Source of the DNA: Candidatus Pacearchaeota archaeon
Lineage (GTDB): Archaea; Nanobdellota; Nanobdellia; Pacearchaeales; GW2011-AR1
Direction: 5' to 3'
DNA length: 64,000 nucleotides
Assembly: GCA_018303855.1 (NCBI GenBank)
Contig: JAGVXI010000013.1
Location: 34,735 to 98,734, forward strand
The notes beneath the pieces are model-generated. The model was not told the DNA's origin. It ran no database searches and saw only the letters and a list, made by a program, of their open reading frames with translations. The translations under genes and the position numbers were made by a program. Within the stretch, counting starts at the first letter, position 1. Each line of letters opens with the position of its first letter. Shown here piece after piece: positions 3,423 through 39,158 of the stretch.

Positions 3423-4388
3423 TTACCCCTCAATCAGCTCCTTAACAAGCTGAGCCATTGTTCTCATGAAGTCTTCTGTTTTAACTTGCCACTCGTCAAT
3501 CTCTACGCCTTTTAAATCAGTAACTTCGCCGTGTGCAATTTTTTTGTGCAGATAATGCAAATCCCTATAATCAATAACATATTTCATTTTTAACTTTTTA
3601 TTATCAACAAATGTTTCTTTTAAGTTGATTGGAATGTGCTCAGGCGAAGGCGGTGAGACATTTGCTGCAATTAAAGCTGCGTGAGCAGAATCAACCATCG
3701 CCCAGTATAATCCCTCTACTGCATTTAATTCAGCAACTTTGCTTCTAGAAATATGCAATGGAGCTCTTTGAAGGGCATTATAAACAGCTTCTGGCGTTGA
3801 TTTTATTTTGCCTTTTACCAGTAGATATTTTAGAGGCTCAAAAAATCCTCCAAAATCTATAATAGACTCGCCGTACCTTATGATATTTATAACAACTGGA
3901 TCGCCTTTTAGCAAATCTTCCCACCATGTGCTAAGCTTTATTGTGTTAACATGAATCTCCCTATTATAAGGATTGCTTTTCAGGGTTTTTTCAAGTTCTT
4001 CTCTGTACCATGCTATAAGTTCCTGGTCCCAGTTTATGGAAACATCGTCGATGATAATGACAATATCAATATCAGAGCCTGCAACATTGCTTTGCTTGAT
4101 TGTAGAACCAAAGAGAACCACAGATTTAACCATTTTATCAAATTTTTGGTAAACTTTTGTTGCAAAATCAAGGGCAATTTCTGTTTCTCTTTTTAACTGC
4201 AGTGTTGGAAGTTTTTTTGAATCAGGTTTTGAGTTTTTATTTTTATCTTTTTCAGCTTTCTCTTTTTTGTCAGCAAGCAGTTTTTTTACAACTTTGGCTT
4301 CTTGTTTTTCTTCTTCTTTTTTTAATGGTGTTTTATACTGCTCTTTTTTTTCAGCCTGTTTTTTTGCATCTCTTTTTTTCTTTTTCAT
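3423..4388 (-). CDS. nucleotidyltransferase-domain protein with Lys/Glu-rich N-terminal extension
   Basis: VVLFGSTIKQSNVAGSDIDIVIIID is the Pol-beta superfamily GS...D.D motif. The first ~90 aa are KE-rich and low complexity. Confidence 0.6.
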   Translation of the reverse strand: MKKKKRDAKKQAEKKEQYKTPLKKEEEKQEAKVVKKLLADKKEKAEKDKNKNSKPDSKKLPTLQLKRETEIALDFATKVYQKFDKMVKSVVLFGSTIKQSNVAGSDIDIVIIIDDVSINWDQELIAWYREELEKTLKSNPYNREIHVNTIKLSTWWEDLLKGDPVVINIIRYGESIIDFGGFFEPLKYLLVKGKIKSTPEAVYNALQRAPLHISRSKVAELNAVEGLYWAMVDSAHAALIAANVSPPSPEHIPINLKETFVDNKKLKMKYVIDYRDLHYLHKKIAHGEVTDLKGVEIDEWQVKTEDFMRTMAQLVKELIEG

Positions 4389-4628
4389 TTCTACCCCTAT
4401 TCAATAATAAAGATTATGCATTAATAAACAATTGCTTGTTTTTAAATGTTTTTTATGTGAAAAACATCTAATATGCTATTTGATGGTTGATAACTACTAA
4501 ATTTAACCTAGTAAGGAATTGTTAACTTTGAAACAACCTTTACACTACTTTATTAATTGCAATTTATACTCTCAAGAGTGTTTGATAACCTTTTACCATT
4601 AAAACTTTTATTTTGATATTGATACTTT

Positions 4629-6458
4629 TTATTCCATCGGTCTTCCTGTAACTCTGCTTGAACCTCCGGTTATCTGTCCGCCAAGTTCCATTGGCAATCC
4701 GGAAAATCCTGCTCCAAAAGTTTGAAAATGAACTTGTGGTAGTGTTTCTCCATAGCCTGCAAAATAACTCTGCCTTAAACCTAAAGCCTGGTTCCAATAA
4801 GGTGTTTTAATTGAATAAATAGGAGATCCCATTGCTTCTAGTGATGTTGCAAAAGGGGAAGTTTTAAAGTGCTGCCACCAGTTTCCAGCTTCAATAAGTT
4901 TTTTAGCCTCAAATCCTTCTTTTCCAAGCTTTTTCATTATCTCTTTAAATGGAACATTTCCCATGCCCATTGGAAGTTCTGTGTGCTCAAAACCAAAATT
5001 ATCACTTAAGTGAATGTGTTTAAGATAAGGCTTGATTTTTTCTGATTCTTTAACAATATCTTTTTTTTCAAATCCGTATTTTCTCAGCATGTTAATATGT
5101 CCGACATCCCAGGTTACTCCAATAAGTTTTTCAGCTGCTTTTTTTGCTTCTCCTTTTGACATGCCTTCGTTAACTGCTTTTTCCACAAATGTTTCTCTTG
5201 CTTTTTCAACGATTTTTTTTAAGTCTTCTCCACGGGCAAAAGCTGTTCCTGCAGGAGGATTTTCAATAGAAACAATCGGAGCATTATTTCCAAATTTGTC
5301 ATAAGCATTAAACGCAACTTTCCCAAATGTTTCAGCTGCTTTGTCCATTGCAAACTCGTTTAATGGTTTGTGGACTTCTGGTGCATCAAATTCACTGAGC
5401 CTATTTATCATCTGCTGATATGCCATAGACTGCATTTTTGGGTCTCTTGTTGTCTGAGTTATCTGCCCAATTTTATCAGCCATATCTTTAAGTGCTTTTT
5501 TTTCTTCTGGTGTTCCAAATTTATATGCCTTATTAAAAGTAGCATTTAAATTTAATCTTATGTGATCAAGATACCTTTGCGCATTTAATATTTTATTATA
5601 TGCCTCTGCTGAAGTTGGAGTAAGAAGTTGTTCTGGATTTTTGGAGCTTAAAAGTTTTGGCATAATTTCTTGAAGCAATGGATAATTTTCATCTATTAAC
5701 CTGTCTGCTCTTTCTTTGTAAAAAACAACCTGAGATATATCATTATCCCATTCTGTGTCATTTATGGCTTTAACTTCTGCTTCTGCTGTAAATGGAATTC
5801 CTTTAGATATATCATAACCTGTTTTTTGCATAATTTTTTTACCTTCTGATGTTCTCCCACTAATTTCTTCTGGAATTGGATAATGCTTTGTTTCTCTTTT
5901 TACCCCTCTTATTTGCCCTGTTTCTTGATTAATAACCAGCATGCTTTCTGTTATTTCTTCTTTTTCTTTCATTCCAGGCTCTTTTATTTTATAAACTTCT
6001 GGAGCTGGTAAAACAGCTGAAGAGTGAAATGTAACATTTATATTTCCTTTTGAATCAAGTTCATGGCTTCTTTCAACAGCAAGAGCCATCTGCCTTTCTG
6101 CAGTCTGCCTGCCCGCTTCTGTATACCCCTCTTTTGTAATTCCAGAAGGTTCAATTAATGGGCCGTGCACTGTTAAGTCTACTCCTGTTAATTTTGCAAG
6201 TCTTTTAACTTCTTTTAAATGCTGTTGGGGAACAGATTCAAAAAGTTCATTAGAAATCAGTGTTACATCAACTACTTTTGCTCCAGAGGGAATTCTTGCT
6301 GCAACTGCTGAGATAATGTCTGCTGTTCGCGGGTCTGTTGGAAGTCCCAAACTGCCAGCAGCAACTCTATAGCCTGTAAAAAGGCTTCCATACTCAGAGT
6401 CAAATGTGGAGTATCCTCCTTGATAAATATCACTTACTTTAAAATAATTGTCTGCCAT
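4629..6458 (-). CDS. xylose isomerase-like TIM-barrel (sugar phosphate isomerase/epimerase, AP endonuclease 2 family) protein with a large internal insertion
   Basis: The C-terminal WDVGHINM...KHIHLSDN...ELPMGMGNVPF and N-terminal VDLTVHGPL resemble the two ends of the TIM barrel. About 300 aa lie between them. Inference from motifs only. Confidence 0.45.
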   Translation of the reverse strand: MADNYFKVSDIYQGGYSTFDSEYGSLFTGYRVAAGSLGLPTDPRTADIISAVAARIPSGAKVVDVTLISNELFESVPQQHLKEVKRLAKLTGVDLTVHGPLIEPSGITKEGYTEAGRQTAERQMALAVERSHELDSKGNINVTFHSSAVLPAPEVYKIKEPGMKEKEEITESMLVINQETGQIRGVKRETKHYPIPEEISGRTSEGKKIMQKTGYDISKGIPFTAEAEVKAINDTEWDNDISQVVFYKERADRLIDENYPLLQEIMPKLLSSKNPEQLLTPTSAEAYNKILNAQRYLDHIRLNLNATFNKAYKFGTPEEKKALKDMADKIGQITQTTRDPKMQSMAYQQMINRLSEFDAPEVHKPLNEFAMDKAAETFGKVAFNAYDKFGNNAPIVSIENPPAGTAFARGEDLKKIVEKARETFVEKAVNEGMSKGEAKKAAEKLIGVTWDVGHINMLRKYGFEKKDIVKESEKIKPYLKHIHLSDNFGFEHTELPMGMGNVPFKEIMKKLGKEGFEAKKLIEAGNWWQHFKTSPFATSLEAMGSPIYSIKTPYWNQALGLRQSYFAGYGETLPQVHFQTFGAGFSGLPMELGGQITGGSSRVTGRPME

Positions 6459-10677: not shown

Positions 10678-12171
10678 TCAAGTATAACTCGGCATACCAT
10701 GAGCTTTCTTAAATGTATCAAACAACTGAAAAGCAGTTCCTGCTCCTTTTTCTGTTGAAAGCCTTCTTAAGTGGTTTTTTTCTATCCAGTCGTCTTTTCT
10801 TATTGGGTTCGCACTTTTTTTCGTGCTTTTTGCTTCTGTTTTTTTCGGCGCTTCTTTTTTATTATAAAATCCAATAAGCGCCAGAAATGGATTTGACTCA
10901 TCTTTTTGCGCTTCTTTTGCTTTTTGCTCAGGTGTTTTATCCTCTAAAAACTCATCGATATCATTTTGCAATTGTTCAAGGCTTTCTGTTGTTGCTCCTT
11001 CAATTAAAGTTAAAACATCCCCTATATCTGATTTATCAAGCTCATAATCTAATTTATCAAGCTCCTCTTGGTTTAAAGCATACCCCTTAAATATTACCTC
11101 TAGTCTTCCTGAAAATCTCCCTCCTTGCTGGGGAATAGCTGTGAATATAACTTCTATTAAAGAACAGGCAAAATAATCTCTTTTTATTTTTAGATTTTTA
11201 AAATCTCTTGGTAGTTCTCCTGTAAGAGCTGCAACTTTTGGGTCTACCTTTTCTTTTCCAAATAAAACAAGCTCCATTCTAACTGTATTAAAAAGATTAA
11301 CCACTCTTGGATCTCTGTTAATTTCTTTCATCTCTAATTTTTGGGCTGCTCTTAAATAAGGCTTTGCCCACCTTGAATAAAGTTTCAATGAATTTACCTG
11401 CTGTTTTAAATATATTTTTTCCATTTCATATCTTTTTCTTAATTCTTTTTCTGATTGTTCTACCCAAATATTGAACTCCTGGACTCTTGCTTTTACAATC
11501 CTTTTAATTTGATCGTTTAAATCAAGCTTATTAGTATCTTCTGGGGTTTTAACAATTAAAAAAGCATCAATAAGCGTCTGGAACCCCATTTGCCCGAGCG
11601 CCATTGCTTTAATGCTTGAGTTTCCTCGTGCAGGATAGTCAACTTTGTCCATCCAGATTTGTTTTAAAGACAAAATAGATGCTTCTTTTATGTTCCTGTC
11701 TTTGGATTTAGTATCAGCATAATACTGCAATCTTATTTTGAATTCTTTTAAGTCATAGATAATATTTAAAATGCCTTTTAGAACAATGCCGGCGTTTGCC
11801 AATAACTTAGACGCTTCATCCTGGACTCTGCTTGCTTTTAAACCTGTTTCTGCAAAATGGCTGCTTCCTGGCGTTGAGGTAAAATTATCTATTAGTTTTT
11901 GCGGAGATAATCCTCTGTCATTCATTAAATCTATAATAAAAAAATAAAGCGGTTCTAATGATTCGCCTCCCGAATTATAAACTAGCCTGTGGGAAGCTTC
12001 AGCGCCGTTTTTATCTATTCTTCCTTTTTCATCTACAACTAAAGCAATTGGTTTAACTTCCTCTGCCTGTATGTTTTCAGCAGAGCCATATTTTGCTAAC
12101 AGTTCTTTGCCGTTTTCTGCATAAAGTTCTGGATTGATTTTCCCAATAATCTGCGGAATTGTTGCCACCAT
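10678..12171 (-). CDS. conserved hypothetical protein (497 aa)
   Basis: Long uninterrupted ORF. No recognisable motif. Confidence 0.4.
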   Translation of the reverse strand: MVATIPQIIGKINPELYAENGKELLAKYGSAENIQAEEVKPIALVVDEKGRIDKNGAEASHRLVYNSGGESLEPLYFFIIDLMNDRGLSPQKLIDNFTSTPGSSHFAETGLKASRVQDEASKLLANAGIVLKGILNIIYDLKEFKIRLQYYADTKSKDRNIKEASILSLKQIWMDKVDYPARGNSSIKAMALGQMGFQTLIDAFLIVKTPEDTNKLDLNDQIKRIVKARVQEFNIWVEQSEKELRKRYEMEKIYLKQQVNSLKLYSRWAKPYLRAAQKLEMKEINRDPRVVNLFNTVRMELVLFGKEKVDPKVAALTGELPRDFKNLKIKRDYFACSLIEVIFTAIPQQGGRFSGRLEVIFKGYALNQEELDKLDYELDKSDIGDVLTLIEGATTESLEQLQNDIDEFLEDKTPEQKAKEAQKDESNPFLALIGFYNKKEAPKKTEAKSTKKSANPIRKDDWIEKNHLRRLSTEKGAGTAFQLFDTFKKAHGMPSYT

Positions 12172-12591: not shown

Positions 12592-12960
12592 ATGCTACTT
12601 ATGTGTTTTATGGGGTTTTTAGGTTTTGGAAAAAAGAGAGATATCGTTGACTTGACAGAGCATTATAAAAGACAGCAGGAAAAACTTGCTCGGCAACAAG
12701 GACAGACTGCCAACTCAATTACTCAAACTGGAAGCGGAGAAGGATTTAGTGTTTTTGATAATTTAGATAATCAAGCCCCATCATCAGCAACTTCTGAAGA
12801 TGTGGATTTTGGCGCAGGAGAAGGAAGTATTGAAGAAAGAAGAAAAAGGCTTGCTAAGAGGTTGATGGAAATGACGACTAAGATTGAAGAATTAAGCAAT
12901 CAGATTTATCATCTTCAGCAGAGGGTTGAGTTATTAGAAAAGAAGACAAGTATTAGGTAA
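12592..12960 (+). CDS. hypothetical coiled-coil protein
   Basis: The C-terminal half has heptad-like content (RRKRLAKRLMEMTTKIEELSNQIYHLQQRVELLEKK). Confidence 0.3.
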   Translation: MLLMCFMGFLGFGKKRDIVDLTEHYKRQQEKLARQQGQTANSITQTGSGEGFSVFDNLDNQAPSSATSEDVDFGAGEGSIEERRKRLAKRLMEMTTKIEELSNQIYHLQQRVELLEKKTSIR

Positions 12961-13193: not shown

Positions 13194-14975
13194 ATGGCTT
13201 GGAAAAAAGAAAAAATAGACTTTAAGTATAATTTCAAAGTGTATTGGGAAATTTTAAAAGAGCATAAATCCATGTTTTTTGCACTGCTTTTTGTTACCTT
13301 AACAGTTGAGGCTTTGCTTATAGTAGACAAGTTTTTATTTAAAAAAATCATTGACGATGGTACAGAATTTATTGCTGGGACAATTGCCCAAGCAGTTTTT
13401 GTGAAAACCTTATTTGTCCTGGCATCTGTTTTTATTGGGATTTCTTTGATTAGAACTATAGGAAAATGGTTTAATATCCATCTTTTAAATGTGCTAGACG
13501 CACAACTTATCTGGGAATTAAAAAGAAAGTATTTCAATCATATTCTTGGTTTAAGTCATAGTTTTCATACAACTCATAGAACAGGTTCTTTAATATCAAG
13601 ATTAAATTGAGGGGCAGGTGCAATTGAGGCAATGACTGACATTGTTGTATTTAACTTTGCTCCTATGTTTTTCCAGTTAATTGTTGTTGGTTTGTCTATT
13701 GCTTATTTTAGTATTTTGCCAGCAGTAGTTATTTTTGGAGTTTCTATTTTATTTATTTCTTACAGCTATTTTATACAACACATACAGCAGAAATCAAAAT
13801 TATTATTTAATAATTTAGAAGATAGGGAAAAAGGATTTATTAGCGATATTCTCACAAATATTGATTCTATAAAATACTTCGGCAAAGAAAGCGTAATAAA
13901 AGCAAAATTTAAGGTAATAACTGAGAAAACAAAAAAAGCTGGTTTAAGATACTGGAGATATTACAGATGGTTTGATTCTATACAAATTTTAATACTTTCA
14001 ATAGGCACTTTACTTTTGGTTTATTTTCCTTTAATGGATTTTTTAGCAGGGAAAATAACACTTGGAACTTTGGTTTTTATTTACACTGTTTATGGAAATG
14101 TTGTTGGTCCAATGTTTGGTTTTGTCTGGGGGTTAAAAGGATTTTACAGAGCAATGGCTGATTTTCAGTATTTATTTGAATACGGAAAAATTAAAAATGA
14201 CATAAAAGACAGGAAAGATGCGAAAGAACTGCCGATTAGAAAAGGTGAAGTTAATTTTGAAAACATAAGTTTTGACTATGGGAAAAGGAAAATCTTCAGA
14301 AATTTTAATTTAAAGATAAAACCAAATGAAAAAATTGCTTTGGTTGGGCATAGTGGGTGTGGCAAGACAACTTTGATTAAGCTTCTTTACAGATTTTATG
14401 ATGTTAAAGCAGGGGCGATTTACATTGATGGTTATGATATCGAGGAGTTTAAGCAGGAATTTCTGAGAGGTGGATTAAGCATTGTTCCGCAAGAGTGTAT
14501 TTTATTTGATGATAATGTTTATAATAATATTCTATTCAGTAATCCACAAGCTTCTCACAAAGAAGTTTTTGATGCGATAAAACTTTCACAGCTTGATAAA
14601 GTTATAAAAAGCTTTCCTAAAAAAGAGGATACAATTGTTGGAGAAAGAGGAATTAAGCTGAGTGGTGGCGAAAAGCAGAGAGTTTCAATTGCAAGAGCAA
14701 TTCTCGCCAATAAAAGAATTCTTGTTTTAGATGAAGCAACTTCCTCTCTTGATTCTGAAACAGAGCACGAAATTCAGAGTGCGCTTGCAAATCTTTTGAA
14801 AGGAAGAACTTCAATAATTATAGCGCACCGCCTTTCCACAATTATGAATGCGGACAGGGTTGTTGTAATGAGGCAGGGTGAGATTGTTCAGATGGGAAGA
14901 CACAATCAATTGATTAACCAGCCAGGAGAATACAAAAGGTTGTGGAACCTTCAGAAGGGAGGGTATATAAAATAA
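13194..14975 (+). pseudogene. ABC exporter (fused TMD-NBD, MsbA/Sav1866-like) interrupted by a single in-frame TGA at 13608-13610
   Basis: The two track ORFs (13194-13610, 13632-14975) are in the same frame. Read-through gives ...SLISRLN*GAGAIEAMTDIV..., the conserved SRL(T/N)xD region of ABC exporter TM3. Walker A GHSGCGKTT, signature LSGGEKQR and Walker B ILVLDEATS are present. Confidence 0.65.
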
Positions 14976-14998: not shown

Positions 14999-16213
14999 AT
15001 GAACCCAAAAAATATTAAAAAAAAGGCGAGGGCATATGCGCTGAAAAATGCGCTTGCATATGGAGGAAAAGCTCAGGTTGGAGCTGTTCTCTCTGGCTTG
15101 TTTCACGAGGGCTTGAAAAAAGAGGATGTTAAAAGGGCGATTAAAGAGATAAATGAGATAGTTAAAGAAATTAACAGCTTAACATTAAATGAGCAAGCTA
15201 ATCGGTTTCAAGCATTAAAAGAAACTGTAAGCCAAAGGCATGTAAGAGAAGGCTTATCTGAGCTGCCAAATGCAAAAAGAGGAAAAGTTGTCATGAGAAT
15301 TTCTCCTGCCCCAAGCGGGCCAATGCATATTGGAAATGCCTTAGTTGCAGCATTAAATTTTCTTTATGCTCAGAAATACAGTGGGAAATTTTGTGTTAGA
15401 ATAGAAGACACAAATCCTGAAAATATATACAAGCCTGCTTATGCATTGATTAAACAAGATGCAAAGTGGCTTTTTGGAAATAAAACAAAGATTGTTATTC
15501 AATCCAAAAGAATGACCTTTTATTACAAATATGCTGAAAAACTTCTTAAAAAAGGAACTGTTTATGTCTGCACTTGTGCTTCTGAGGATTTTAAAGAAGA
15601 ATATGTTAATAAAATGAAGCCATGTCCTTGCAGGGGTTTAAGTGTTCAAAAGCATTTAGCAAGATGGAAAAAAATGCTTTCTAAAAAAGAAGATAATTAC
15701 AAAGAAGGAGTGGCTGTTTTAAGATTCAAATCTTCAATGACTGACAAAAATCCTGCAATGCGTGATTTTCCTTTGGCAAGAATAAATGAAGCAGAGCATC
15801 CTTTGCAGAAACACAAATATAGGGTTTGGCCTTTGATGAATTTGGCTGTTGCTGTTGATGATATAGATATGAGGATGACTCATATTATTCGCGGGAAAGA
15901 TCATATGGACAACGCAAAAAGACAGTGCATGATTTTTAATGCACTTGGCAAAAAATGTCCTTGGACAGCATTTTTAGGCAGATTCAAATTTAAGGATTTT
16001 AAGTTATCAAAGACAAAAATAAGGCAGGGAATTGAACAGGGAAAATACAAAGGATGGGATGATCCTGCACTGCCGACAATTTCAAGCTTAAGAAAACAGG
16101 GATATAAAAAGCAGGCTTTTTTGAAATTTGCAGAGCATATTGGACTAAGTGAGAATGATAAAGTAATGGGAAAAGAGGATTATCTTGAACTTTTGGATAC
16201 ATTTAATAAATAA
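14999..16213 (+). CDS. gltX: glutamyl-tRNA synthetase, archaeal/eukaryotic type, catalytic domain only (C-terminally truncated)
   Basis: N-terminus ARAYALKNALAYGGKAQVGAVLS, HIGH-like PSGPMHIGNA, LSKTK (KMSKS equivalent) and GWDDPALPT are all present. The ORF stops about 70 aa after LSKTK, with no continuation in any frame up to 16500. Confidence 0.65.
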   Translation: MNPKNIKKKARAYALKNALAYGGKAQVGAVLSGLFHEGLKKEDVKRAIKEINEIVKEINSLTLNEQANRFQALKETVSQRHVREGLSELPNAKRGKVVMRISPAPSGPMHIGNALVAALNFLYAQKYSGKFCVRIEDTNPENIYKPAYALIKQDAKWLFGNKTKIVIQSKRMTFYYKYAEKLLKKGTVYVCTCASEDFKEEYVNKMKPCPCRGLSVQKHLARWKKMLSKKEDNYKEGVAVLRFKSSMTDKNPAMRDFPLARINEAEHPLQKHKYRVWPLMNLAVAVDDIDMRMTHIIRGKDHMDNAKRQCMIFNALGKKCPWTAFLGRFKFKDFKLSKTKIRQGIEQGKYKGWDDPALPTISSLRKQGYKKQAFLKFAEHIGLSENDKVMGKEDYLELLDTFNK

Positions 16214-16504
16214 TTCTATTATTAATCGAAAAGTTTTTAATTATGAAGCCATGCAAAATTATTTGATTAATGCTATAACATTTGGTTATTAAACGCTGTG
16301 ATATTTATTGTGAAAAATAAATAACTCAAAACCTAATTGTGAGGCACCGGTTAATTGCGAACATTTGAGTATAAGGTAAAATCATCATGTTGTTTTACAT
16401 AGTGATGTTCTATGCGTATAGTTATAGTATTCTCAACCTAATTTTAGTAATAACTCTTAATCAACTGCTATCTCTTAATCTACACAAGTAATTAATAAAT
16501 CTCA

Positions 16505-18004: not shown

Positions 18005-18980
18005 TTATAGTTTTAATACTTCTTCGACGTTTATCCAGGATTTTTCAGTGTTTAAAGCATCTTCCAATGCAAGTCTTGGACAAGCAGTATTCACCCATGA
18101 TTTAACGAAAGGGAAGTTCTCCATTTCCCTTATGTCAACACCATCTGCAACAAATGTAAAAAACTTTTTTTCTGGAAATTTTATCTTTAATTTTTCAACA
18201 TAGTGAAAATGTTCCTGCCCGGGTTTTGTTGTAACAATAACCCCTACTTTATCTGCCATTAAAAATATCTTTAAATTTTTTTCTTTTAATTTTAAAATAT
18301 TTTCAATCTCTCGTTTATCGTATTCTTTAAGCTTGTTTGTTTTAGGATTAAAAACATAGATAACCTTATTTGAATTAGAATCAGCTTCGCTAAATAATAA
18401 AGCTCTTGGATGAAACATTCCATCCCCCACATAAAGATAAACATCAACTTTCGCAGGCAATTTTAAATTACCATGGTAAATATCACACCCAAGAATTTGC
18501 ATTTTTGATTTTGTTCTTTCTGGCTGTGAGCTTGCAATTTTGATCCCTTGCTCTTCAAGCTGTTTGATAATTTTATCTATTCCATGCAAAAATTGGGTTG
18601 TTGTGTAGATAGCAAGTGTTTTATGCTTTTTTAGCTCATCTATAGCTGATTTAGCTAATTCAATTTTCCCGGTGTATTTGACATTAATAAATTCAACTTT
18701 CATGGTTCTAAGTTCTCCATCCTTTTGGATTTTTTATAAACAAGTTATGCCCAAATTGTATAATTAAATCTACTCTTTTTATCATGGTTATAGGGATATC
18801 ACAACCCCCAAAACACTGTCCTAACCAAACCATCACCTTTGCATCTGTATTCTCTTCAATAGCATTAATGACTTCTTCTGCTCTTTGCTTTAAACCATCT
18901 GGCAATTGTAAAAGGACTGATTTTGCCTCGTGTTTTTTAACAAGTTCAACAACTTTCTTTGTTTCTAAATCATATTCCAT
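18005..18980 (-). pseudogene. dph2: 2-(3-amino-3-carboxypropyl)histidine synthase Dph2 (diphthamide biosynthesis), frameshifted
   Basis: Track ORFs 18708-18980 and 18005-18703 are the N- and C-terminal parts of one Dph2-like protein (LLQLPDGL...FGH...). They lie in different frames, with the junction in an A-rich run (ataaaaaatccaaaagg). Confidence 0.6.
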
Positions 18981-23098: not shown

Positions 23099-24973
23099 AT
23101 GACCAATTACTTATCTATCTCACACCTTCAAGACATTGCAAATATCATGCGAAGAGATGTCTTAAAAATGACTACGCAAGCTGAAAGCGGGCATCCCACT
23201 TCTTGTTTAAGCGCAGCAGAAATTATGTCTGTGCTGTTTTTTCATGAAATGTCTTATGATACTAAAAACGCACTTAATCCAGATAATGATGAATTTATCC
23301 TAAGCAAGGGACACGCAGCCCCAATTCTTTATTCTGCTTTGTATAATACAGGTTGTATAAATGATAACCTGCTTGACTTGCGAAAATTAAACAGTTTTCT
23401 TGAAGGGCATCCAATTCCTTCTTCAAAACTAAAATGGATAAAAGTAGCTACAGGAAGTTTAGGGCAAGGGTTAAGTGTTGGTGTTGGTATGGCTTTAGCG
23501 GCTAAACTTCAAAATAGGAAATTTAGAACTTATGTTCTTCTTGGGGATAGTGAAATAGCAGAAGGAGAGATTTATGAAGCACTGCAGTTAGGAGCTTATT
23601 ACAAGCTTAACAATATAATCGCAATTGTTGATATTAATCGCCTTGGGCAAAGGGGCGAGACAATGATTGGACATAATATTGCTTTATATAAAAAAAGATT
23701 TAAGGGCTTTGGCTGGAATATTCTTGTATGTGATGGGCATAACATTAAAAAGTTGTTAAAAGTTTTTTCTAAAGTAAAAAACAGCAAAAAACCCTCTATT
23801 ATTTTGGCTAAAACAATAAAAGGAAAAGGAGTTGGTTTTCTTGAAGACAGGGACAGATGGCATGGTACAGCGCTGACAAAAGAGCAACTGCAAAAAGCAT
23901 TAACTGAAATTCCAAATCCTAAAATGCCTAAGATTATTATTAATAAACCGAAAGTTGTTAATGTTAAAACAATTGATAAAACTGCTAAATCACCTGCTTC
24001 AAAATCAAGCCTAATTAACAAAACAAATTACCAGAAATATCAAGAGATCTCAACACGTGAAGCTTATGGAAATGCTCTTGCAAATTTAGCTCTTAAAGAC
24101 AAAACTATTTTGGCAATTGATGCAGAAGTAAGCAATTCTACAAAATCTGAGAAAGTTAAGTATGTAAAACCACGCCAGTTTGTTGAAGCATTTATAGCAG
24201 AGCAAAACATGGCTTCAATGGCTTTAGGTTTGAGTGTTAAAGGATTTAATGTTTTTGCTTCTTCATTTGCCGCTTTCCTTACAAGGGCTCACGACCAAAT
24301 AAGAATGGCTGCGATTTCAAAAGCAGATATAACTTTTTGTGGAAGCCATTCTGGGGTTAGCATAGGAAAAGACGGTGCAAGCCAAATGGGTTTAGAAGAC
24401 TTGCCAATGTTTAGAGATTTGCCAAATAGCATTGTGCTATACCCCAGCGACGCTGTTTCCTGCAATAAATTAACAAAACTTTGTGCTGGCTTAAATAATA
24501 TTAAGTATCTTAGAACAACAAGAGCAGCAACACCTGTTATTTACAAAAATACTGAACAATTTAAGATTGGGGATTTTAAAATTTTAAAGCAAAGCAAAGA
24601 TGATAAACTTGTTTTAATTGGTGCAGGAATAACTTTATATGAAGCTCTAAGAGCTTATTCAGCTTTAAAAAACCAGCATATTAACTCAGCTGTTGTAGAT
24701 TTATACTGCATAAAGCCTTTTAATGCCAAAAAACTTATTAATTTTGTTAAAAAGCATGGCAATAAAATTGTCATTGCAGAAGACCATTATAAAGAAGGAG
24801 GAATTGGAGAAATGATTGCTGAAGAAATTGAAAATGCTAAAAGTGATATAATGCTTAGTCATTTGGCTGTCCAAGAACTGCCTCATTCAGGCACAAAAGA
24901 CGAGTTGCTTGATAAATACGGAATAGACTGGCAGGGTTATGTTGTAGTTGCAAAGGAGATGGTGAGAAGATGA
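23099..24973 (+). CDS. tkt: transketolase (N- and C-terminal halves fused in one 624-aa protein)
   Basis: SGHPTSCLSAAEIMSVLFF, GSLGQGLSVGVGMA, LLGDSEIAEGEIYEA and a C-terminal pyrimidine-binding/transketolase-C domain. Confidence 0.85.
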   Translation: MTNYLSISHLQDIANIMRRDVLKMTTQAESGHPTSCLSAAEIMSVLFFHEMSYDTKNALNPDNDEFILSKGHAAPILYSALYNTGCINDNLLDLRKLNSFLEGHPIPSSKLKWIKVATGSLGQGLSVGVGMALAAKLQNRKFRTYVLLGDSEIAEGEIYEALQLGAYYKLNNIIAIVDINRLGQRGETMIGHNIALYKKRFKGFGWNILVCDGHNIKKLLKVFSKVKNSKKPSIILAKTIKGKGVGFLEDRDRWHGTALTKEQLQKALTEIPNPKMPKIIINKPKVVNVKTIDKTAKSPASKSSLINKTNYQKYQEISTREAYGNALANLALKDKTILAIDAEVSNSTKSEKVKYVKPRQFVEAFIAEQNMASMALGLSVKGFNVFASSFAAFLTRAHDQIRMAAISKADITFCGSHSGVSIGKDGASQMGLEDLPMFRDLPNSIVLYPSDAVSCNKLTKLCAGLNNIKYLRTTRAATPVIYKNTEQFKIGDFKILKQSKDDKLVLIGAGITLYEALRAYSALKNQHINSAVVDLYCIKPFNAKKLINFVKKHGNKIVIAEDHYKEGGIGEMIAEEIENAKSDIMLSHLAVQELPHSGTKDELLDKYGIDWQGYVVVAKEMVRR

Positions 24974-28908: not shown

Positions 28909-29460
28909 ATGAAACGAGTTGTTCTATTTATTGATGGAAGTAATTTTTATTATGGGCTTAAATCAATTTACGGAGAAGATAAAGAGCTTCATAATTTTAA
29001 TTTTTTAAAACTTGGAGAAAAGCTTGCAGACAAGAGAGATTTGGTGAGAGTATATTATTATAATGCCCCATTAGATTATAAAAATAATCCTGAAAAATAT
29101 GCCAAACAGCAGAAGTTTTTTGACAAAGTTAAAGCAACAGACAAAGTAAAGCTTATTTTAAGTAGACTCCAAAAAAGAAAAATAAAAGGAACTGACAGAT
29201 ACTACTACGCCATAAAAGGAGACGATATTCACTTGGCTTCTGATATGATTAAAGGAGCATATGAAGGCATGTACGATGTTGCTGTTCTCGTTTCTGGAGA
29301 TGGTGATTTTATTCCAGCAGTTAATATTATTCAAGAAAAGGGCAAGCTCGTAGAAAATGCTTATTTCAAACAAAGTTTATCTTGGCATTTAAAACAGGAA
29401 TGTGACAAATCAATAAAATTAACCAAAGAAATTCTTGACTATTGTTTCGATTTAAAATGA
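28909..29460 (+). CDS. NYN-domain (LabA-like) protein
   Basis: MKRVVLFIDGSNFYYGLKSIY...LVSGDGDFIPAVNIIQEKGKLV. Start moved to the internal ATG at 28909. The track N-terminal extension covers the hairpin. Confidence 0.7.
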   Translation: MKRVVLFIDGSNFYYGLKSIYGEDKELHNFNFLKLGEKLADKRDLVRVYYYNAPLDYKNNPEKYAKQQKFFDKVKATDKVKLILSRLQKRKIKGTDRYYYAIKGDDIHLASDMIKGAYEGMYDVAVLVSGDGDFIPAVNIIQEKGKLVENAYFKQSLSWHLKQECDKSIKLTKEILDYCFDLK

Positions 29461-30602
29461 AAATCCTGGTTTTGTATCCATACCCATTAGAACCAGATGG
29501 ACAGAGTTTGCAAGGGCATTATCTTGTTAAAGGGTTAAATGAGCTGGGAATAGAGGCAATGTCTTGCGACAGAGAAGACAACCTACAGAAATTATATGCT
29601 TACAAGTCTTTTCAGCCAGATTTCGTCATAGGTATTGGCTACTGGGGTAATACGCCAGAGCTTGTTCAAAGTCCAATAAATCATAATTTAAATTCTGTTC
29701 CTTGGTTTAATGCAGATGGCTGGGTTGCAAATTACCACAATGTTTTGGAATCACTGCCCTTGCTTGTTGTAACAAGCAACTGGGTTAAACAAACTTACAT
29801 AAGAGATGGCTTGTCTGGAAAGAATATCCATGTTTGCCCAATTGGTTTTGACCCTGAAGTTTTTCATCCAGTTGAAAAAAACAACGAGCAAATAAAAAAA
29901 CTCAGGGAAATGCTCGGTGTTTTAGAGCATGAAAAAATGATTTTTACTGCAGGCGGAGATGTTACAAGCAAAGGCGCGCAAGAGATGTTTAAAGCCTTGG
30001 CAAAAATAGACAAAGAATTTCCAGACTGGAAATATGTGCTTAAAACTTATGATAGTTTTTCAGCAGAAGACCATGGAAAAGAAGAAGAAAAACTTATAGA
30101 AGAACTTGGAATTGACAAGGAAAAAATTATTTACCTAACAGGCAAGTACTCTCCCGAATTCATGGCTTCTTTGCTTCAAGCATGTGATATTTATGCTGCT
30201 CCTTCACGATTAGAAGGTTTTGGTATGATTCAAGTAGAGGCAATGGCATGTGGCAAGCCAGTAATATCAATAAATGTTGGGGGGCCAAAAGATACTATAA
30301 TCCATGCTAAAACCGGTTTTTTAGTAGATGTTGAATCTGAAATAAAATTAGACAGAGAATGGGCATATGATTGGATGGGATTTGAGGAAAAACACCAAAT
30401 TAAATTTGACAAGCCAAAAACTTTTGCTTACAAGGCAGATATTAATCAACTCGCACATTATACGTTAAAACTTATGACAGATGATAATTTAAGAGAACAA
30501 ATGGGAAAACAAGCATCAGAACATGCTTTGCAAAACTTTCATTATAAAATCACAGCAAAGAGGATGCTGGAATTGGTTGAGAAGTATGGTGTGAAGAGGT
30601 AA
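29457..30602 (+). CDS. glycosyltransferase family 4 (GT-B, GT1/GT4 superfamily)
   Basis: EGFGMIQVEAMACGKPVISINVGGPKDTIIHAKTGFLV is the GT4 E-x7-E region. The start MKILVLYPYP is typical. Confidence 0.75.
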   Translation: MKILVLYPYPLEPDGQSLQGHYLVKGLNELGIEAMSCDREDNLQKLYAYKSFQPDFVIGIGYWGNTPELVQSPINHNLNSVPWFNADGWVANYHNVLESLPLLVVTSNWVKQTYIRDGLSGKNIHVCPIGFDPEVFHPVEKNNEQIKKLREMLGVLEHEKMIFTAGGDVTSKGAQEMFKALAKIDKEFPDWKYVLKTYDSFSAEDHGKEEEKLIEELGIDKEKIIYLTGKYSPEFMASLLQACDIYAAPSRLEGFGMIQVEAMACGKPVISINVGGPKDTIIHAKTGFLVDVESEIKLDREWAYDWMGFEEKHQIKFDKPKTFAYKADINQLAHYTLKLMTDDNLREQMGKQASEHALQNFHYKITAKRMLELVEKYGVKR

Positions 30603-33512: not shown

Positions 33513-34667
33513 TCACTTCCCCTTAAACTTAACTTTTTCTAAATGATTTAAAATGTCCTTTAGGGCAACTTTTTTTACTGTTACAACTTCGTCAGCTCCT
33601 CCAGAATAAATTAAAATATCTTTTTCATTCTCATCCATTATTGCACCTGTTGTAAAAATAACATTGCTTACAAAACCTTCTTTTTCATATTTTTTTGTTG
33701 GGATTATAATTGGATGAGGAGATTTTGCTATTAGTTTTGATGGATTTTTCAAATCAAACAAAGCAGCACCAATTGAATAAATTGAATAAACATTATCTTC
33801 TTCAAACATTTTACTTAAAAAATTTGGCAGAATGTTTAATTGGCTATGGTGCTTTTTGTCTGTAACCCCATGATAAAGCAAAAGCCATCCGTCTTTTGTT
33901 TTTATTGGAGGTGCACCAGCTCCAACTCTTGAATAGTCCCATTTTCCTCTTTCAGAAAGTTTTATGGGCTTGGAATTCCCCCAATATTTCAGGTCTTTTG
34001 AAAAAGAAATCCATATATGTGGGGGTGAAAACTGAAAGCTTCCTTCTGGCCTGTTAAAAGCAACATATTCATTATTAATTTTCTCTGGAAAAATCACAAC
34101 ATCTTTATTTTGTTCTCTAAAAATCAAACCTTTTCTTTTCCAGTTTAAAGCATCTTTTGATACAGCACAGCTTGTTGTTATGTTGCCATCAATTGACAAG
34201 CTAACATAAGCCATTATATACTCTTTTCCAAGTTTTGTGATTCTTGGGTCTTCAACCCCCAATTCGCCGTCATTGAATAGCCCCTCAAAAGTTGGGTGTT
34301 TATCTATTGATTTAACTTTAAATCCTGATTTATCAAGTATAACTTTTCTTAAATGAGATATAAATGTCAGCCTTTTTGTTCCTTCTTTGAAAACCAAAGC
34401 AACATCCCTGTCCAATCCCATGTCTTTTTTTGGAAATTTATCTATTTTAACCATGCATTTATTTTTTCCAGAACATCTCGGTGCATAATAATATCTTTTG
34501 TCCTCTATTTTTTTTAGCTTTTCAGCAACCCTAACATAAAGAGCAATATCGCCATTTGGCATTCTTGTAGCTCCTGGATTAAAAGTGCCAATAACTTCAA
34601 ATTTACTTGATGAGGATTTTACATCTTCAGGAGTTACAAGTACAGCCTCTTTTTTTATTGGAATCAT
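33513..34667 (-). CDS. GH130 family glycosidase/phosphorylase (DUF377, PH1107-related)
   Basis: FNPGATRMPNGDIALYVRV, DPRITKLGKEYIMAY and GAGAPPIKTKDGWLLLYHGV. Confidence 0.7.
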   Translation of the reverse strand: MIPIKKEAVLVTPEDVKSSSSKFEVIGTFNPGATRMPNGDIALYVRVAEKLKKIEDKRYYYAPRCSGKNKCMVKIDKFPKKDMGLDRDVALVFKEGTKRLTFISHLRKVILDKSGFKVKSIDKHPTFEGLFNDGELGVEDPRITKLGKEYIMAYVSLSIDGNITTSCAVSKDALNWKRKGLIFREQNKDVVIFPEKINNEYVAFNRPEGSFQFSPPHIWISFSKDLKYWGNSKPIKLSERGKWDYSRVGAGAPPIKTKDGWLLLYHGVTDKKHHSQLNILPNFLSKMFEEDNVYSIYSIGAALFDLKNPSKLIAKSPHPIIIPTKKYEKEGFVSNVIFTTGAIMDENEKDILIYSGGADEVVTVKKVALKDILNHLEKVKFKGK

Positions 34668-38015: not shown

Positions 38016-39158
38016 TCACACCAGACACTTCTTAGCCTTCACGCTTTCATAAGCAGCAATGTACATGCCAGCATTCCAGCCCTGGTTTCCTTCTTTGCTT
38101 CCACTTGCAGAAACTCCTGGTTTGCCTGTTTTTCCATTTAACCATTCTGAAAAAAACGGCTTTTGCATATTTGCTTTTGCAAGTAACTCTAATTGTTTTT
38201 CAGCTTCTTTAAACTTCTTTAGTTTAACAAGCGCAAGAACATAAAATCCTCCAATGTAAGTCCATATTCCTGCATTTAGATAATGATAGGGTGTGCGTGC
38301 ATCGCAATCATTAAAATAATCTTCCCAATACTTACTTCCTCTTTTTATTGCAGGATAAATTGCCTTAACAGGAAATGGCTTGTCCACCCTTTTATTTTTA
38401 ATGTAATTAATTATTTTTTCTGCTTGCTCCTTATTTGCTAAGTCATAAATTATTGCAAGTAAATTTCCTAAGCTGTCAAACCACTCGCCAAATTCCTTAT
38501 ATTTTCCATGATTTTTCCATCTCCAAGGCAGATAAAACTCGCCTTGCCACAACTTGTCATCTTTATCTTCATTTACAATTATCTTAAGTTTTTCTGCTAG
38601 AGATTTCTTACCGATTAAATTCAGAATCTTATAGTATAATGCCTGTGTATTAATTGTATGCCCGTATTTGTGAGGAAAAGCATCTTGCCAGTCTGTTGTT
38701 GGCAGTTGTTCTAAAGTTATGTCTTCTCCAAAATCCCTGTATTCAAGCCAGGTAATTGCTTTTTTTATTGCGTTTTTATGCTTCTTGAAAAGCGAGGCTT
38801 CCTTATATCTTTGCTTATAAATATAACTACCAATAATAAACCACAAGCTTGAGTCAACTGATTTAAAGTCAACATGATGCTTTCTTCCTTTAATAAATCT
38901 GTCAACTGCATTTGGAATTTGCCCTTTCTTGCTTTGGTTTTTCGCTAAAGTAATTAATGAGTTTTTAAAAGTCTCTTTAAGTTTTTTATCTTTAAGCAAA
39001 CTTGCTCCTAAAGAAATTATCATGCTGTCTCTTCCAAAAACCATGTCATAGCCAGGGTATGCTGCATAAAACCCGTTTTTAGTTGAGCATTTTTTTAAAA
39101 CCTCAATTGCTTTTTTGTATGCTATTTCTGTTATGCCCTCTTTTTTTATTGGAATCAT
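38016..39158 (-). CDS. six-hairpin (alpha/alpha)6 glycosidase-like protein (GDE_C / GH63-like)
   Basis: Size and W/Y/D-rich blocks (DSSLWFIIGSY, WLEYRDFGEDITLEQLPTTDWQD, GNQGWNAGMY) resemble amylo-alpha-1,6-glucosidase-type domains. Inference. Confidence 0.5.
   Translation of the reverse strand: MIPIKKEGITEIAYKKAIEVLKKCSTKNGFYAAYPGYDMVFGRDSMIISLGASLLKDKKLKETFKNSLITLAKNQSKKGQIPNAVDRFIKGRKHHVDFKSVDSSLWFIIGSYIYKQRYKEASLFKKHKNAIKKAITWLEYRDFGEDITLEQLPTTDWQDAFPHKYGHTINTQALYYKILNLIGKKSLAEKLKIIVNEDKDDKLWQGEFYLPWRWKNHGKYKEFGEWFDSLGNLLAIIYDLANKEQAEKIINYIKNKRVDKPFPVKAIYPAIKRGSKYWEDYFNDCDARTPYHYLNAGIWTYIGGFYVLALVKLKKFKEAEKQLELLAKANMQKPFFSEWLNGKTGKPGVSASGSKEGNQGWNAGMYIAAYESVKAKKCLV

What the first reader, a model, noticed from the sequence alone, without database searches (positions are those of the whole stretch)
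14999..16504. Glutamyl-tRNA synthetase lacking its anticodon-binding C-terminal domain
The archaeal-type GluRS has all catalytic-domain landmarks (HIGH-like HIGN, LSKTK, GWDDPALPT) but terminates about 70 aa after the KMSKS-equivalent. A 290-bp AT-rich non-coding stretch follows, with no ORF in any frame. Either this is a pseudogene, or the C-terminal domain is encoded elsewhere as a split gene. Split genes for large enzymes (AlaRS, reverse gyrase) are established in Nanoarchaeum equitans, but a split GluRS would be new. A third possibility is a Glu-Q-RS-like catalytic-only paralog.
Basis: partly seen in the sequence, partly recalled or inferred. Interest (0 to 1): 0.5.

Follow-up and report, generated by a model that had tools for sequence, protein, structure and literature searches.

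The report
Archaeal GluRS without its anticodon-binding domain
This is an intact, conserved glutamyl-tRNA synthetase that has lost its whole anticodon-reading domain in a large group of tiny-genome (Pacearchaeota-like DPANN) archaea; it is neither a broken gene nor half of a split gene, and it suggests these cells charge tRNA-Glu without reading the anticodon.

Summary
Window 14999-16213 (+) encodes a 404-aa archaeal-type GluRS. It has the YqeY N-domain, Rossmann core, Zn-binding CP insertion and stem-contact fold. It stops exactly where the two beta-barrel anticodon-binding domains begin in the solved M. thermautotrophicus enzyme. A 291-nt, 26.5% GC spacer follows and holds no remnant.

Pseudogene and misassembly are rejected. 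The 120 best database relatives (61-71% identical) are all 395-426 aa, and 24 GTDB species have the same stop position. Ninety catalytic-core columns are conserved as in full-length Woesearchaeota enzymes.

The split-gene reading is not supported. I found no C-domain in the window or within +-10 kb in 24 related genomes, and no standalone C-domain protein family.

The short clade is nested inside full-length DPANN GluRS. Its sister is a 468-aa intermediate at the same syntenic locus, so the domain was lost stepwise in place.

Similar losses occur independently in at least two other DPANN lineages.

Most likely this is the housekeeping non-discriminating GluRS working without anticodon recognition. 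I could not search a whole genome, so a second GluRS elsewhere is not excluded. I found no description of this in the literature I could search.

The parts
14999..16213 (+). Complete gene for a 404-aa short archaeal-type glutamyl-tRNA synthetase (stop TAA 16211-16213)
   Evidence: ORF. PF00749 E=1.6e-64. NCBIfam PRK04156 scores 431 bits over profile 3-392 of 567. 3aii E=3e-89. AlphaFold2 pLDDT 93. Best PDB fold match is 3aii, rmsd 1.9 A over 316 columns.
14999..15232 (+). N-terminal YqeY-like helical domain (aa 1-78), retained
   Evidence: Aligns to 3aii residues 10-85, which the structure paper calls the YQEY domain. Modelled as four helices, aa 3-76. Mean column conservation in the short clade is 0.74.
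15284..16033 (+). Class I catalytic core (aa 96-345): Rossmann fold plus CP insertion. It carries HIGN (nt 15326-15337), the Zn-site cysteines CxC...CxC (aa 191-211, nt 15569-15631) and the KMSKS-equivalent LSKTK (nt 16004-16018).
   Evidence: Ninety columns across the protein are >=90% conserved and identical in short and full-length clades. The core's net charge is +27 here, against about +5 in full-length enzymes of equally AT-rich genomes.
16034..16210 (+). Stem-contact-fold domain (aa 346-404) with GWDDP. The protein ends at ...EDYLELLDTFNK, exactly at the SC-fold/beta-barrel junction.
   Evidence: Full-length relatives continue after the homologous ...YNK/FNK with the barrel sequence.
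16214..16504 (.). 291-nt AT-rich intergenic spacer (26.5% GC). It holds no remnant of the C-domain or of the pilin-like gene that follows gltX in relatives.
12592..12960 (+). Small coiled-coil protein (122 aa). It belongs to the conserved neighbourhood and lies directly upstream of the short gltX in most relatives.
   Evidence: Gene-neighbour clustering found it in 15 of 23 loci. Only weak DivIC-like Pfam hits.
10678..12171 (-). Conserved ~470-500-aa protein with no Pfam match. It is a synteny marker shared with the locus of the 468-aa intermediate GluRS.
   Evidence: 41% identical to the L062 homologue. No Pfam family.
3423..6458 (-). Nucleotidyltransferase (3423-4388) and an AP_endonuc_2-like 609-aa protein (4629-6458). 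They are further synteny markers of the conserved gltX neighbourhood.
   Evidence: Pfam. Synteny.

Best explanation
The gene encodes the housekeeping, probably non-discriminating, glutamyl-tRNA synthetase of a Pacearchaeota-like DPANN (Nanobdellota) archaeon. In this lineage the enzyme has lost both beta-barrel anticodon-binding domains by stepwise C-terminal truncation at its native locus: about 560 aa, then 468 aa keeping only the last strands of the proximal barrel, then about 400 aa.

Shown: the remaining domains are YqeY, the Rossmann core, the Zn-binding CP insertion and the SC-fold. They are intact, confidently folded and strongly conserved across a large monophyletic clade.

Inferred: the enzyme still glutamylates tRNA-Glu, and tRNA-Gln for GatDE. 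It would recognise tRNA through the acceptor stem and D-arm/elbow, using the catalytic core, the SC-fold and the YqeY domain, and not the anticodon. A markedly more basic catalytic core would help it bind tRNA.
For: 1. Clean truncation at a domain boundary. The protein aligns to 3aii residues 10-385, and the barrels start at residue 400.

2. The short form is conserved. The 120 best hits are 395-426 aa, 61-71% identical and carry PF00749 only. In 24 GTDB species the stop falls 3-24 nt after the end of the match.

3. The enzyme is constrained. Ninety columns are >=90% conserved and identical to full-length Woesearchaeota enzymes. The HIGH, KMSKS-like, Zn-Cys and GWDD motifs are kept, and every domain has a mean column conservation of 0.74-0.81. 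The model has pLDDT 93 and its best fold match is 3aii.

4. The clade is monophyletic and nested within full-length DPANN GluRS. Its sister is the 468-aa P0121, whose tail matches only C-domain HMM positions 110-165.

5. Positional orthology. The 468-aa gene shares the upstream genes with short-form loci and with the window: nucleotidyltransferase 60% identical, AP_endonuc_2-like protein 40%, and the ~470-aa protein 41-43%.

6. The two forms are separated by lineage. The nearest full-length clade is named only Woesearchaeota or Nanoarchaeota and shares no contig with the short forms. All 55 GTDB loci come from different assemblies.

7. No C-domain elsewhere.

8. Independent short forms sit next to the L7Ae-S28e ribosomal operon in two other DPANN lineages.

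9. The catalytic-core net charge averages +17.4 in 22 short-clade enzymes, against +4.8 in 8 full-length enzymes at matched GC.

10. Precedent. An engineered C-truncated E. coli GluRS remains specific for tRNA-Glu (Dubois et al. 2009, cited in PMC3927822).
Against: No complete genome could be searched. A second GluRS in the same organisms, whether full-length archaeal or bacterial-type, is therefore not excluded.

The GTDB scan used peptide patterns taken from this protein, so it would miss divergent second copies. The contig cross-check covers only the best 120 entries of each list.

The protein scores below NCBIfam's curated cut-offs for archaeal GluRS, because a third of the profile is missing.

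No aminoacylation data exist, and the anticodon is a major identity element for well-studied GluRS enzymes.

The charge shift rests on only 2-3 independent evolutionary events and is absent in the Micrarchaeota short form.
Confidence: 0.6

Rival explanations
1. Catalytic-only paralog with a non-canonical job, analogous to bacterial Glu-Q-RS. It would modify a tRNA or glutamylate another acceptor, while another GluRS encoded elsewhere in the genome does the housekeeping charging.
For: The architecture (catalytic domain without an anticodon-binding domain) is the one known from Glu-Q-RS. Whole genomes could not be searched. The score is below the curated GluRS cut-offs.
Against: By sequence it is an archaeal GluRS: 431 bits to PRK04156, against 113 bits to the Glu-Q-RS model whose cut-off is 277. 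It keeps the YqeY N-domain and the SC-fold. It differs from full-length Woesearchaeota enzymes (mean 48% identity) little more than those differ among themselves (mean 60%, range 47-88%). It occupies the same locus as a 468-aa form that retains part of the barrel. No contig or assembly was seen with both forms. From my own knowledge, queuosine, the Glu-Q-RS substrate, is not an archaeal modification.
Confidence: 0.2
2. Split gene. The anticodon-binding beta-barrels are encoded as a separate ORF elsewhere and join the catalytic half in trans, as with N. equitans AlaRS.
For: Split genes are documented in DPANN archaea (PMC6349945). This window itself carries a split Dph2. One ENA contig (L004) has a lone 177-aa C-domain ORF.
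Against: An HMM built from 112 C-domains finds nothing in the window, in L001-L003, in 24 related GTDB loci with up to +-10 kb of flank, or in L064-L066. A C-domain profile search of 5.8 billion proteins returned only 56 short proteins. These start at variable internal positions, almost all lie on contigs under 3 kb, and none lies on the long contigs that carry short GluRS. L005 is a scaffold-gap artefact. L004 is a single odd contig in which the ORF overlaps a truncated hydrolase gene. The 468-aa intermediate shows erosion of the domain, not fission.
Confidence: 0.05
3. Pseudogene, or an assembly or sequencing artefact that truncates a normal GluRS at 16214.
For: The neighbouring ABC-transporter gene has an in-frame TGA, so this sequence does contain at least one disrupted gene or sequencing error.
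Against: The same length and stop position occur in more than 120 clusters and in 24 species. An identical 404-aa protein is found in independent ENA assemblies (P0001). No barrel remnant lies downstream in any frame. The stop is a double in-frame TAA. Conservation is strong throughout.
Confidence: 0.02

Closest known systems
Archaeal non-discriminating GluRS (GlxRS-A; M. thermautotrophicus, PDB 3AII)
   Same: Same family by sequence and predicted fold. It shares the YqeY N-domain, the Rossmann core, the Zn-binding CP insertion and the SC-fold. Identity over the structural alignment is 40% (316 columns, rmsd 1.9 A).
   Different: It lacks residues equivalent to 400-552, that is both beta-barrels that read the anticodon. 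Its catalytic core is much more basic.
Bacterial Glu-Q-RS (YadB)
   Same: A natural member of the GluRS family consisting of a catalytic domain without an anticodon-binding domain.
   Different: YadB derives from bacterial-type GluRS, is about 300 aa, has no YqeY domain, coexists with a normal GluRS and glutamylates queuosine of tRNA-Asp. The window protein matches the YadB models far below their cut-offs and groups with archaeal GluRS.
Engineered C-truncated E. coli GluRS (Dubois et al. 2009, Biochemistry 48:6012; cited in PMC3927822)
   Same: It shows that a GluRS stripped of its distal anticodon-binding domain can still charge tRNA-Glu specifically (title and citation seen; the details are from my own knowledge).
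   Different: It is a laboratory construct of the bacterial alpha-helical-cage type. Here the loss is natural, fixed across a clade, and concerns the beta-barrel type.
Delta-N PylRS of Methanomassiliicoccales
   Same: A natural aaRS that lost its separate tRNA-binding domain, with no trans-encoded replacement, and is still used for translation (PMC9499178).
   Different: It belongs to a different class (class II). The domain lost is N-terminal, and PylRS does not read the anticodon in any case.
Split aaRS genes of Nanoarchaeum equitans (AlaRS)
   Same: A DPANN context, and an aaRS gene that ends at a domain boundary.
   Different: There the missing half exists as a second gene. Here no second half was found.

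Membership tests
Archaeal-type GluRS (GlxRS-A; NCBIfam PRK04156 / TIGR00463) | Class I E/Q catalytic domain (PF00749) with HIGH and KMSKS-type motifs | tested here: met
   PF00749 scores 218 bits. HIGN and LSKTK are present; the clade consensus is HIGH.
Archaeal-type GluRS (GlxRS-A; NCBIfam PRK04156 / TIGR00463) | N-terminal YqeY-like extension, Zn-binding CP insertion and SC-fold | tested here: met
   Aligned to 3aii residues 10-385. Domain map. The CxC...CxC cysteines are invariant or nearly invariant. The model is confident.
Archaeal-type GluRS (GlxRS-A; NCBIfam PRK04156 / TIGR00463) | C-terminal beta-barrel anticodon-binding domains (PF03950 + PF20974) | tested here: not met
   No Pfam hit. 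The profile match stops at position 392 of 567. A C-domain HMM finds nothing in the window.
Archaeal-type GluRS (GlxRS-A; NCBIfam PRK04156 / TIGR00463) | Score at or above the curated equivalog cut-off | tested here: not met
   431 bits against a cut-off of 516 (PRK04156), and 351 against 402 (TIGR00463). The shortfall matches the missing third of the profile.
Archaeal-type GluRS (GlxRS-A; NCBIfam PRK04156 / TIGR00463) | Glutamylation of tRNA-Glu (and tRNA-Gln) | not testable with these tools
   Needs an enzyme assay.
Glu-Q-RS (YadB) | Sequence membership (TIGR03838 / PRK05710 models at or above cut-off) | tested here: not met
   113 bits against a cut-off of 277; the other four Glu-Q-RS models listed are also far below theirs.
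Glu-Q-RS (YadB) | Coexists with a canonical full-length GluRS in the same genome | tested here: inconclusive
   No contig or assembly was seen with both forms, and there is no second copy in the 64-kb window. No whole genome was searched.
Glu-Q-RS (YadB) | Acts on queuosine-34 of tRNA-Asp | not testable with these tools
   From my own knowledge, archaea use archaeosine and not queuosine. Not examined here.
Split (two-gene) aminoacyl-tRNA synthetase | The complementary half is encoded as a separate conserved ORF | tested here: not met
   No C-domain ORF in the window, in the related loci, or as a protein family in the database. Limit: remote positions in the genome were not read directly.

The most novel reading that the evidence does not exclude
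An entire order-level clade of DPANN archaea, and independently at least two other DPANN lineages, translate with a GluRS that has no anticodon-binding domain at all. Glutamate and glutamine identity would then be set without reading the anticodon, with help from the YqeY domain and a highly basic catalytic core. This would be a living example of the catalytic-domain-only GluRS once postulated for early evolution.
Probability: 0.5. Interest if true: 0.7.

Novelty: new variant of a known kind. Interest (0 to 1): 0.58.

Why it matters
Every canonical GluRS and GlnRS studied so far carries an anticodon-binding domain. GluRS also needs bound tRNA to activate glutamate.

A naturally domain-less enzyme serving as the only GluRS would show that anticodon reading is dispensable for Glu/Gln identity in very small genomes. 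It would provide a natural minimal class Ib synthetase for biochemical and structural work. It would also make the old idea that the ancestral GluRS was a catalytic domain alone directly testable (discussed in PMC2978374 and PMC3927822).

There is a practical side as well. Curated annotation models score this essential gene below threshold, so it may be under-called in DPANN genome annotation.

Tried and rejected
The single genome-contig scan was then spent on the window protein. That scan cannot detect divergent second copies.
- Downstream ORFs of 150-164 aa in L001 and L003 as possible trans partners: they are pilin-like proteins with class III signal peptides, not barrel domains.
- Short C-domain proteins as a standalone family: they are fragments with variable starts. 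L005 is a scaffold-gap split and L004 a single odd contig.
- Synteny between short-form loci and Woesearchaeota full-length loci: not conserved. Positional orthology could be shown only to the 468-aa intermediate. There is also a loose shared linkage to L7Ae-S28e.
- Alternative genetic code as an explanation of the stops: rejected. TGA ends 19 of 54 long ORFs, and the GluRS stop is TAA.
- RNA elements or a gene remnant in the 291-nt spacer: none.
- tRNA-Glu comparison: only one tRNA-Glu from a short-form locus was available (L042), and it looks ordinary. That is too few to draw any conclusion.
- Literature: four full-text searches and seven papers gave no description of an archaeal GluRS lacking its anticodon-binding domain. 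The preprint on 208 complete Nanobdellota genomes lists aaRSs among its single-copy core genes but does not name GluRS.

Full report
**Observation**

Window 14999-16213 (+) is a single ORF of 404 codons ending in TAA, with a second in-frame TAA three codons later. Pfam recognises only the class I Glu/Gln catalytic domain PF00749, over aa 96-396.

The best NCBIfam models are the two archaeal GluRS equivalogs. They match only profile positions 3-392 of 567 and 5-384 of 560, so they fall below their curated cut-offs (431 against 516 bits, 351 against 402). The Glu-Q-RS models score 113 bits or less against cut-offs of 250 or more.

Against solved structures the best match is M. thermautotrophicus ND-GluRS (3aii, E=3e-89), with query residues 12-391 aligned to chain residues 10-385 of 553. 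The paper on that structure gives the domain limits: YQEY domain 1-85, Rossmann fold 86-170 and 288-331, CP insertion 171-287, SC-fold 354-399, proximal barrel 400-408 and 500-552, distal barrel 409-499 (PMC2978374).

The window protein therefore keeps everything up to and including the SC-fold and ends at the junction with the barrels. The spacer 16214-16504 is 291 nt with 26.5% GC. It holds only 34-35-aa ORFs, no Rfam match and no similarity to the missing domain.

**Not a pseudogene or an artefact**

A search of 5.8 billion proteins returned 3205 hits at E<=1e-20. The best 120 are all 395-426 aa, are 61-71% identical to the query and carry PF00749 only. One of them is an identical 404-aa protein from other ENA assemblies, and some of the rest lie on contigs of 150-777 kb.

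Among GTDB species representatives, 55 loci from 55 different assemblies were recovered. All 24 with at least 53% identity end 3-24 nt after the end of the match or run off the contig. All 29 with at most 51% identity continue for about 450-540 nt into a fused barrel domain.

Comparing 120 short forms with 120 full-length enzymes of the nearest clade, 90 columns are >=90% conserved with the same residue in both. The HIGH, Zn-Cys (CxC...CxC), KMSKS-like and GWDD motifs are kept. Mean column conservation is 0.74-0.81 in every retained domain.

AlphaFold2 gives a confident model (pLDDT 93, pTM 0.78). Its best PDB match is 3aii, with rmsd 1.9 A over 316 columns.

The window's Asn in HIGN is an individual variant. 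The same position varies (G/N/S/T and others) in bacterial GluRS (PMC3927822).

**Not a split gene, as far as can be tested**

An HMM built from 112 C-terminal domains finds nothing (best E 0.6) in the six-frame translation of the window and of two 21-kb loci from 765-777-kb contigs. It also finds nothing in the 24 short-form GTDB loci with up to 10 kb of flank on each side, while it detects the fused domain in every full-length locus.

A profile of the domain searched against the protein database returned only 56 short proteins. They begin at variable internal positions of GluRS, and almost all lie on contigs under 3 kb, so they are gene fragments. None lies on the long contigs that carry short GluRS.

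Three cases on longer contigs were inspected. One is a scaffold-gap split (L005). One begins 178 nt from a contig end (L006). One is a single odd contig in which the ORF overlaps a truncated hydrolase gene (L004).

The ORF that follows gltX in most relatives is a pilin-like protein with a class III signal peptide.

**Origin**

In a neighbour-joining tree of the retained region, the short forms make one clade. Its sister is P0121, a 468-aa protein that is 60% identical to the window protein; seven of the eight members of its cluster are 468 aa. Next come full-length enzymes of 553-570 aa.

P0121 and the unrelated 474-aa P0140 keep only the last ~65 residues (LMPD...FWFAHK). These match C-domain HMM positions 110-165, the closing strands of the proximal barrel.

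The P0121-type gene (L062) lies downstream of the same genes as the short forms and the window gene: a nucleotidyltransferase (60% identity), an AP_endonuc_2-like 600-aa protein (40%) and a ~470-aa protein with no Pfam match (41-43%). This is positional orthology. It argues for stepwise erosion of the domain in one gene lineage and against a new paralog.

The nearest full-length clade carries only Woesearchaeota or Nanoarchaeota names, while short forms are named Pacearchaeota, Nanoarchaeota or just archaeon. No contig length is shared between the two best-120 lists. NCBI names of such MAGs are unreliable, so I place the window only as a Pacearchaeota-like Nanobdellota archaeon. Its 31-32% GC fits the small-genome orders described in bioRxiv 10.64898/2026.05.13.725050.

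**Recurrence**

Other ~400-aa forms end at the same boundary and are scattered among full-length sequences in the tree. They are P0136 (399 aa, 6 contigs up to 271 kb), P0204 (404 aa, Micrarchaeota CG1_02_51_15) and P0131 (412 aa).

Their loci confirm that other genes follow directly and that no barrel is present. In L064 and L065, as in L062, the next operon is L7Ae-S28e. That linkage is also seen near full-length gltX in L028 and L030 and near a short form in L013.

Some other apparent short forms (P0127, P0144, P0240) are merely fragments of full-length clusters.

**Mechanism**

Shown: the catalytic machinery, the YqeY domain and the SC-fold are retained and constrained.

Also shown: the catalytic core (aa 96-345) has a mean net charge of +17.4 in 22 enzymes of the short clade (+27 in the window protein). 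The intermediate form has +21 and the independent P0136 lineage +17. Eight full-length enzymes from genomes of the same ~30% GC average +4.8 (Mann-Whitney p=5e-5, not corrected for phylogeny). The Micrarchaeota short form does not share this shift (+2).

Inferred: the enzyme is the cell's ND-GluRS. It would bind tRNA-Glu and tRNA-Gln through the acceptor stem and the D-arm or elbow, using the core, the SC-fold and the YqeY domain. The extra lysines would compensate for the lost binding energy.

Supporting knowledge:
- An engineered C-truncated E. coli GluRS is still specific for tRNA-Glu (Dubois et al. 2009, cited).
- A YqeY domain is appended to D. radiodurans GlnRS (PMC1865053, abstract). 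That it increases tRNA affinity there is my recollection of that paper, which I did not read here.
- Archaeal ND-GluRS forms a complex with GatDE, which itself recognises the D-loop and the first base pair of tRNA-Gln (PMC9499178).
- PylRS variants that lack their tRNA-binding N-domain function naturally.

**What remains open**

I could not read a whole genome of the clade. The main rival therefore stands at about 0.2: a catalytic-only paralog beside another GluRS, possibly of bacterial type.

The GTDB scan used peptides from this protein and would miss a divergent second copy. There is no second PF00749 gene in the 64-kb window or the fetched flanks, but that covers only a small part of a ~0.7-1 Mb genome.

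**Novelty**

Four full-text searches and seven papers turned up no description of an archaeal GluRS without its anticodon-binding domain. The papers included AARS Online, a review of aaRS paralogs, DPANN genomics reviews and the 208-genome Nanobdellota preprint. AARS Online lists the beta-barrel domain as part of the GlxRS-A family.

I rate this a new variant of a known kind. It is of moderate to good interest for aaRS and tRNA-identity research, and it can be tested directly by biochemistry.

Noticed in passing
window 13194-14975 (+), stop at 13608-13610: The ABC exporter gene directly upstream of gltX is interrupted by one in-frame TGA (…SRLN*GAGAIEAMTD). The 593-aa homologue in L003 has Arg at that position (…SRLNRGSSSIESLTD). 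TGA is a normal stop elsewhere in the window (19 of 54 long ORFs). This looks like a nonsense mutation or a sequencing error, not recoding.
   Followed up: partly
window 18708-18980 (-) and 18005-18703 (-): Diphthamide synthase Dph2 is encoded as two adjacent ORFs of 90 aa and 232 aa, matching Pfam PF01866 profile positions 1-58 and 65-277. This fits the split dph2 reported for Pacearchaeota and Woesearchaeota (Narrowe et al. 2018, cited in PMC6349945).
   Followed up: partly
L001 11245-11739, L003 11295-11747 and 14 other short-form loci; absent at window 16214-16504: In 16 of 23 loci a ~145-170-aa pilin-like protein with a class III signal peptide follows the short gltX on the same strand, 35-210 nt downstream. 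The window has lost it or never had it; a 2Fe-2S ferredoxin gene on the opposite strand follows instead.
   Followed up: partly
window 15284-16033 and homologous regions of L007-L027, L062, L064: The catalytic core of the short and intermediate GluRS forms is far more basic (net charge +10 to +27) than that of full-length relatives from equally AT-rich genomes (0 to +11). The Micrarchaeota short form (L065) is an exception at +2.
   Followed up: yes
L064 4001-5200; L065 4001-5215; L066 329-1567: ABD-less GluRS genes of ~400 aa also occur in unrelated DPANN lineages, including Micrarchaeota CG1_02_51_15. In L064 and L065 they lie next to the L7Ae-S28e operon. This suggests recurrent loss of the domain.
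   Followed up: partly
L004 1548-2081: A lone 177-aa GluRS beta-barrel ORF on an 8.2-kb ENA contig overlaps the end of a truncated IU_nuc_hydro ORF. It is the only candidate for a free-standing C-domain that I saw. It may be an assembly chimera.
   Followed up: partly
L001 13603-13674, and L007, L008, L009, L011, L016, L021, L023: A tRNA-His gene lies a few kb downstream of the short gltX in 11 of 25 short-form loci scanned. In several of them (L001, L007, L008, L009, L011) it sits next to the histidyl-tRNA synthetase gene.
   Followed up: no
L052 (DATJPO010000017.1); L032, L033, L037 and others: Record titles are unreliable. A 3.2-kb contig carrying a Pacearchaeota-type GluRS (56% identical to the window protein, cut by the contig end) is filed under 'Candidatus Omnitrophota bacterium'. 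Several Woesearchaeota-type loci are titled 'uncultured Methanosarcinales archaeon'. Binning or naming errors are likely.
   Followed up: no
window 1-64000: There are no tRNA, rRNA or other Rfam-family genes anywhere in the 64-kb window. The window is rich in glycosyltransferases and glycoside hydrolases/phosphorylases (e.g. 29442-30602, 33513-34667, 38016-39158, 39776-42028). It also encodes a heavy-metal P-type ATPase (48869-51163) and a transketolase (23099-24973).
   Followed up: no
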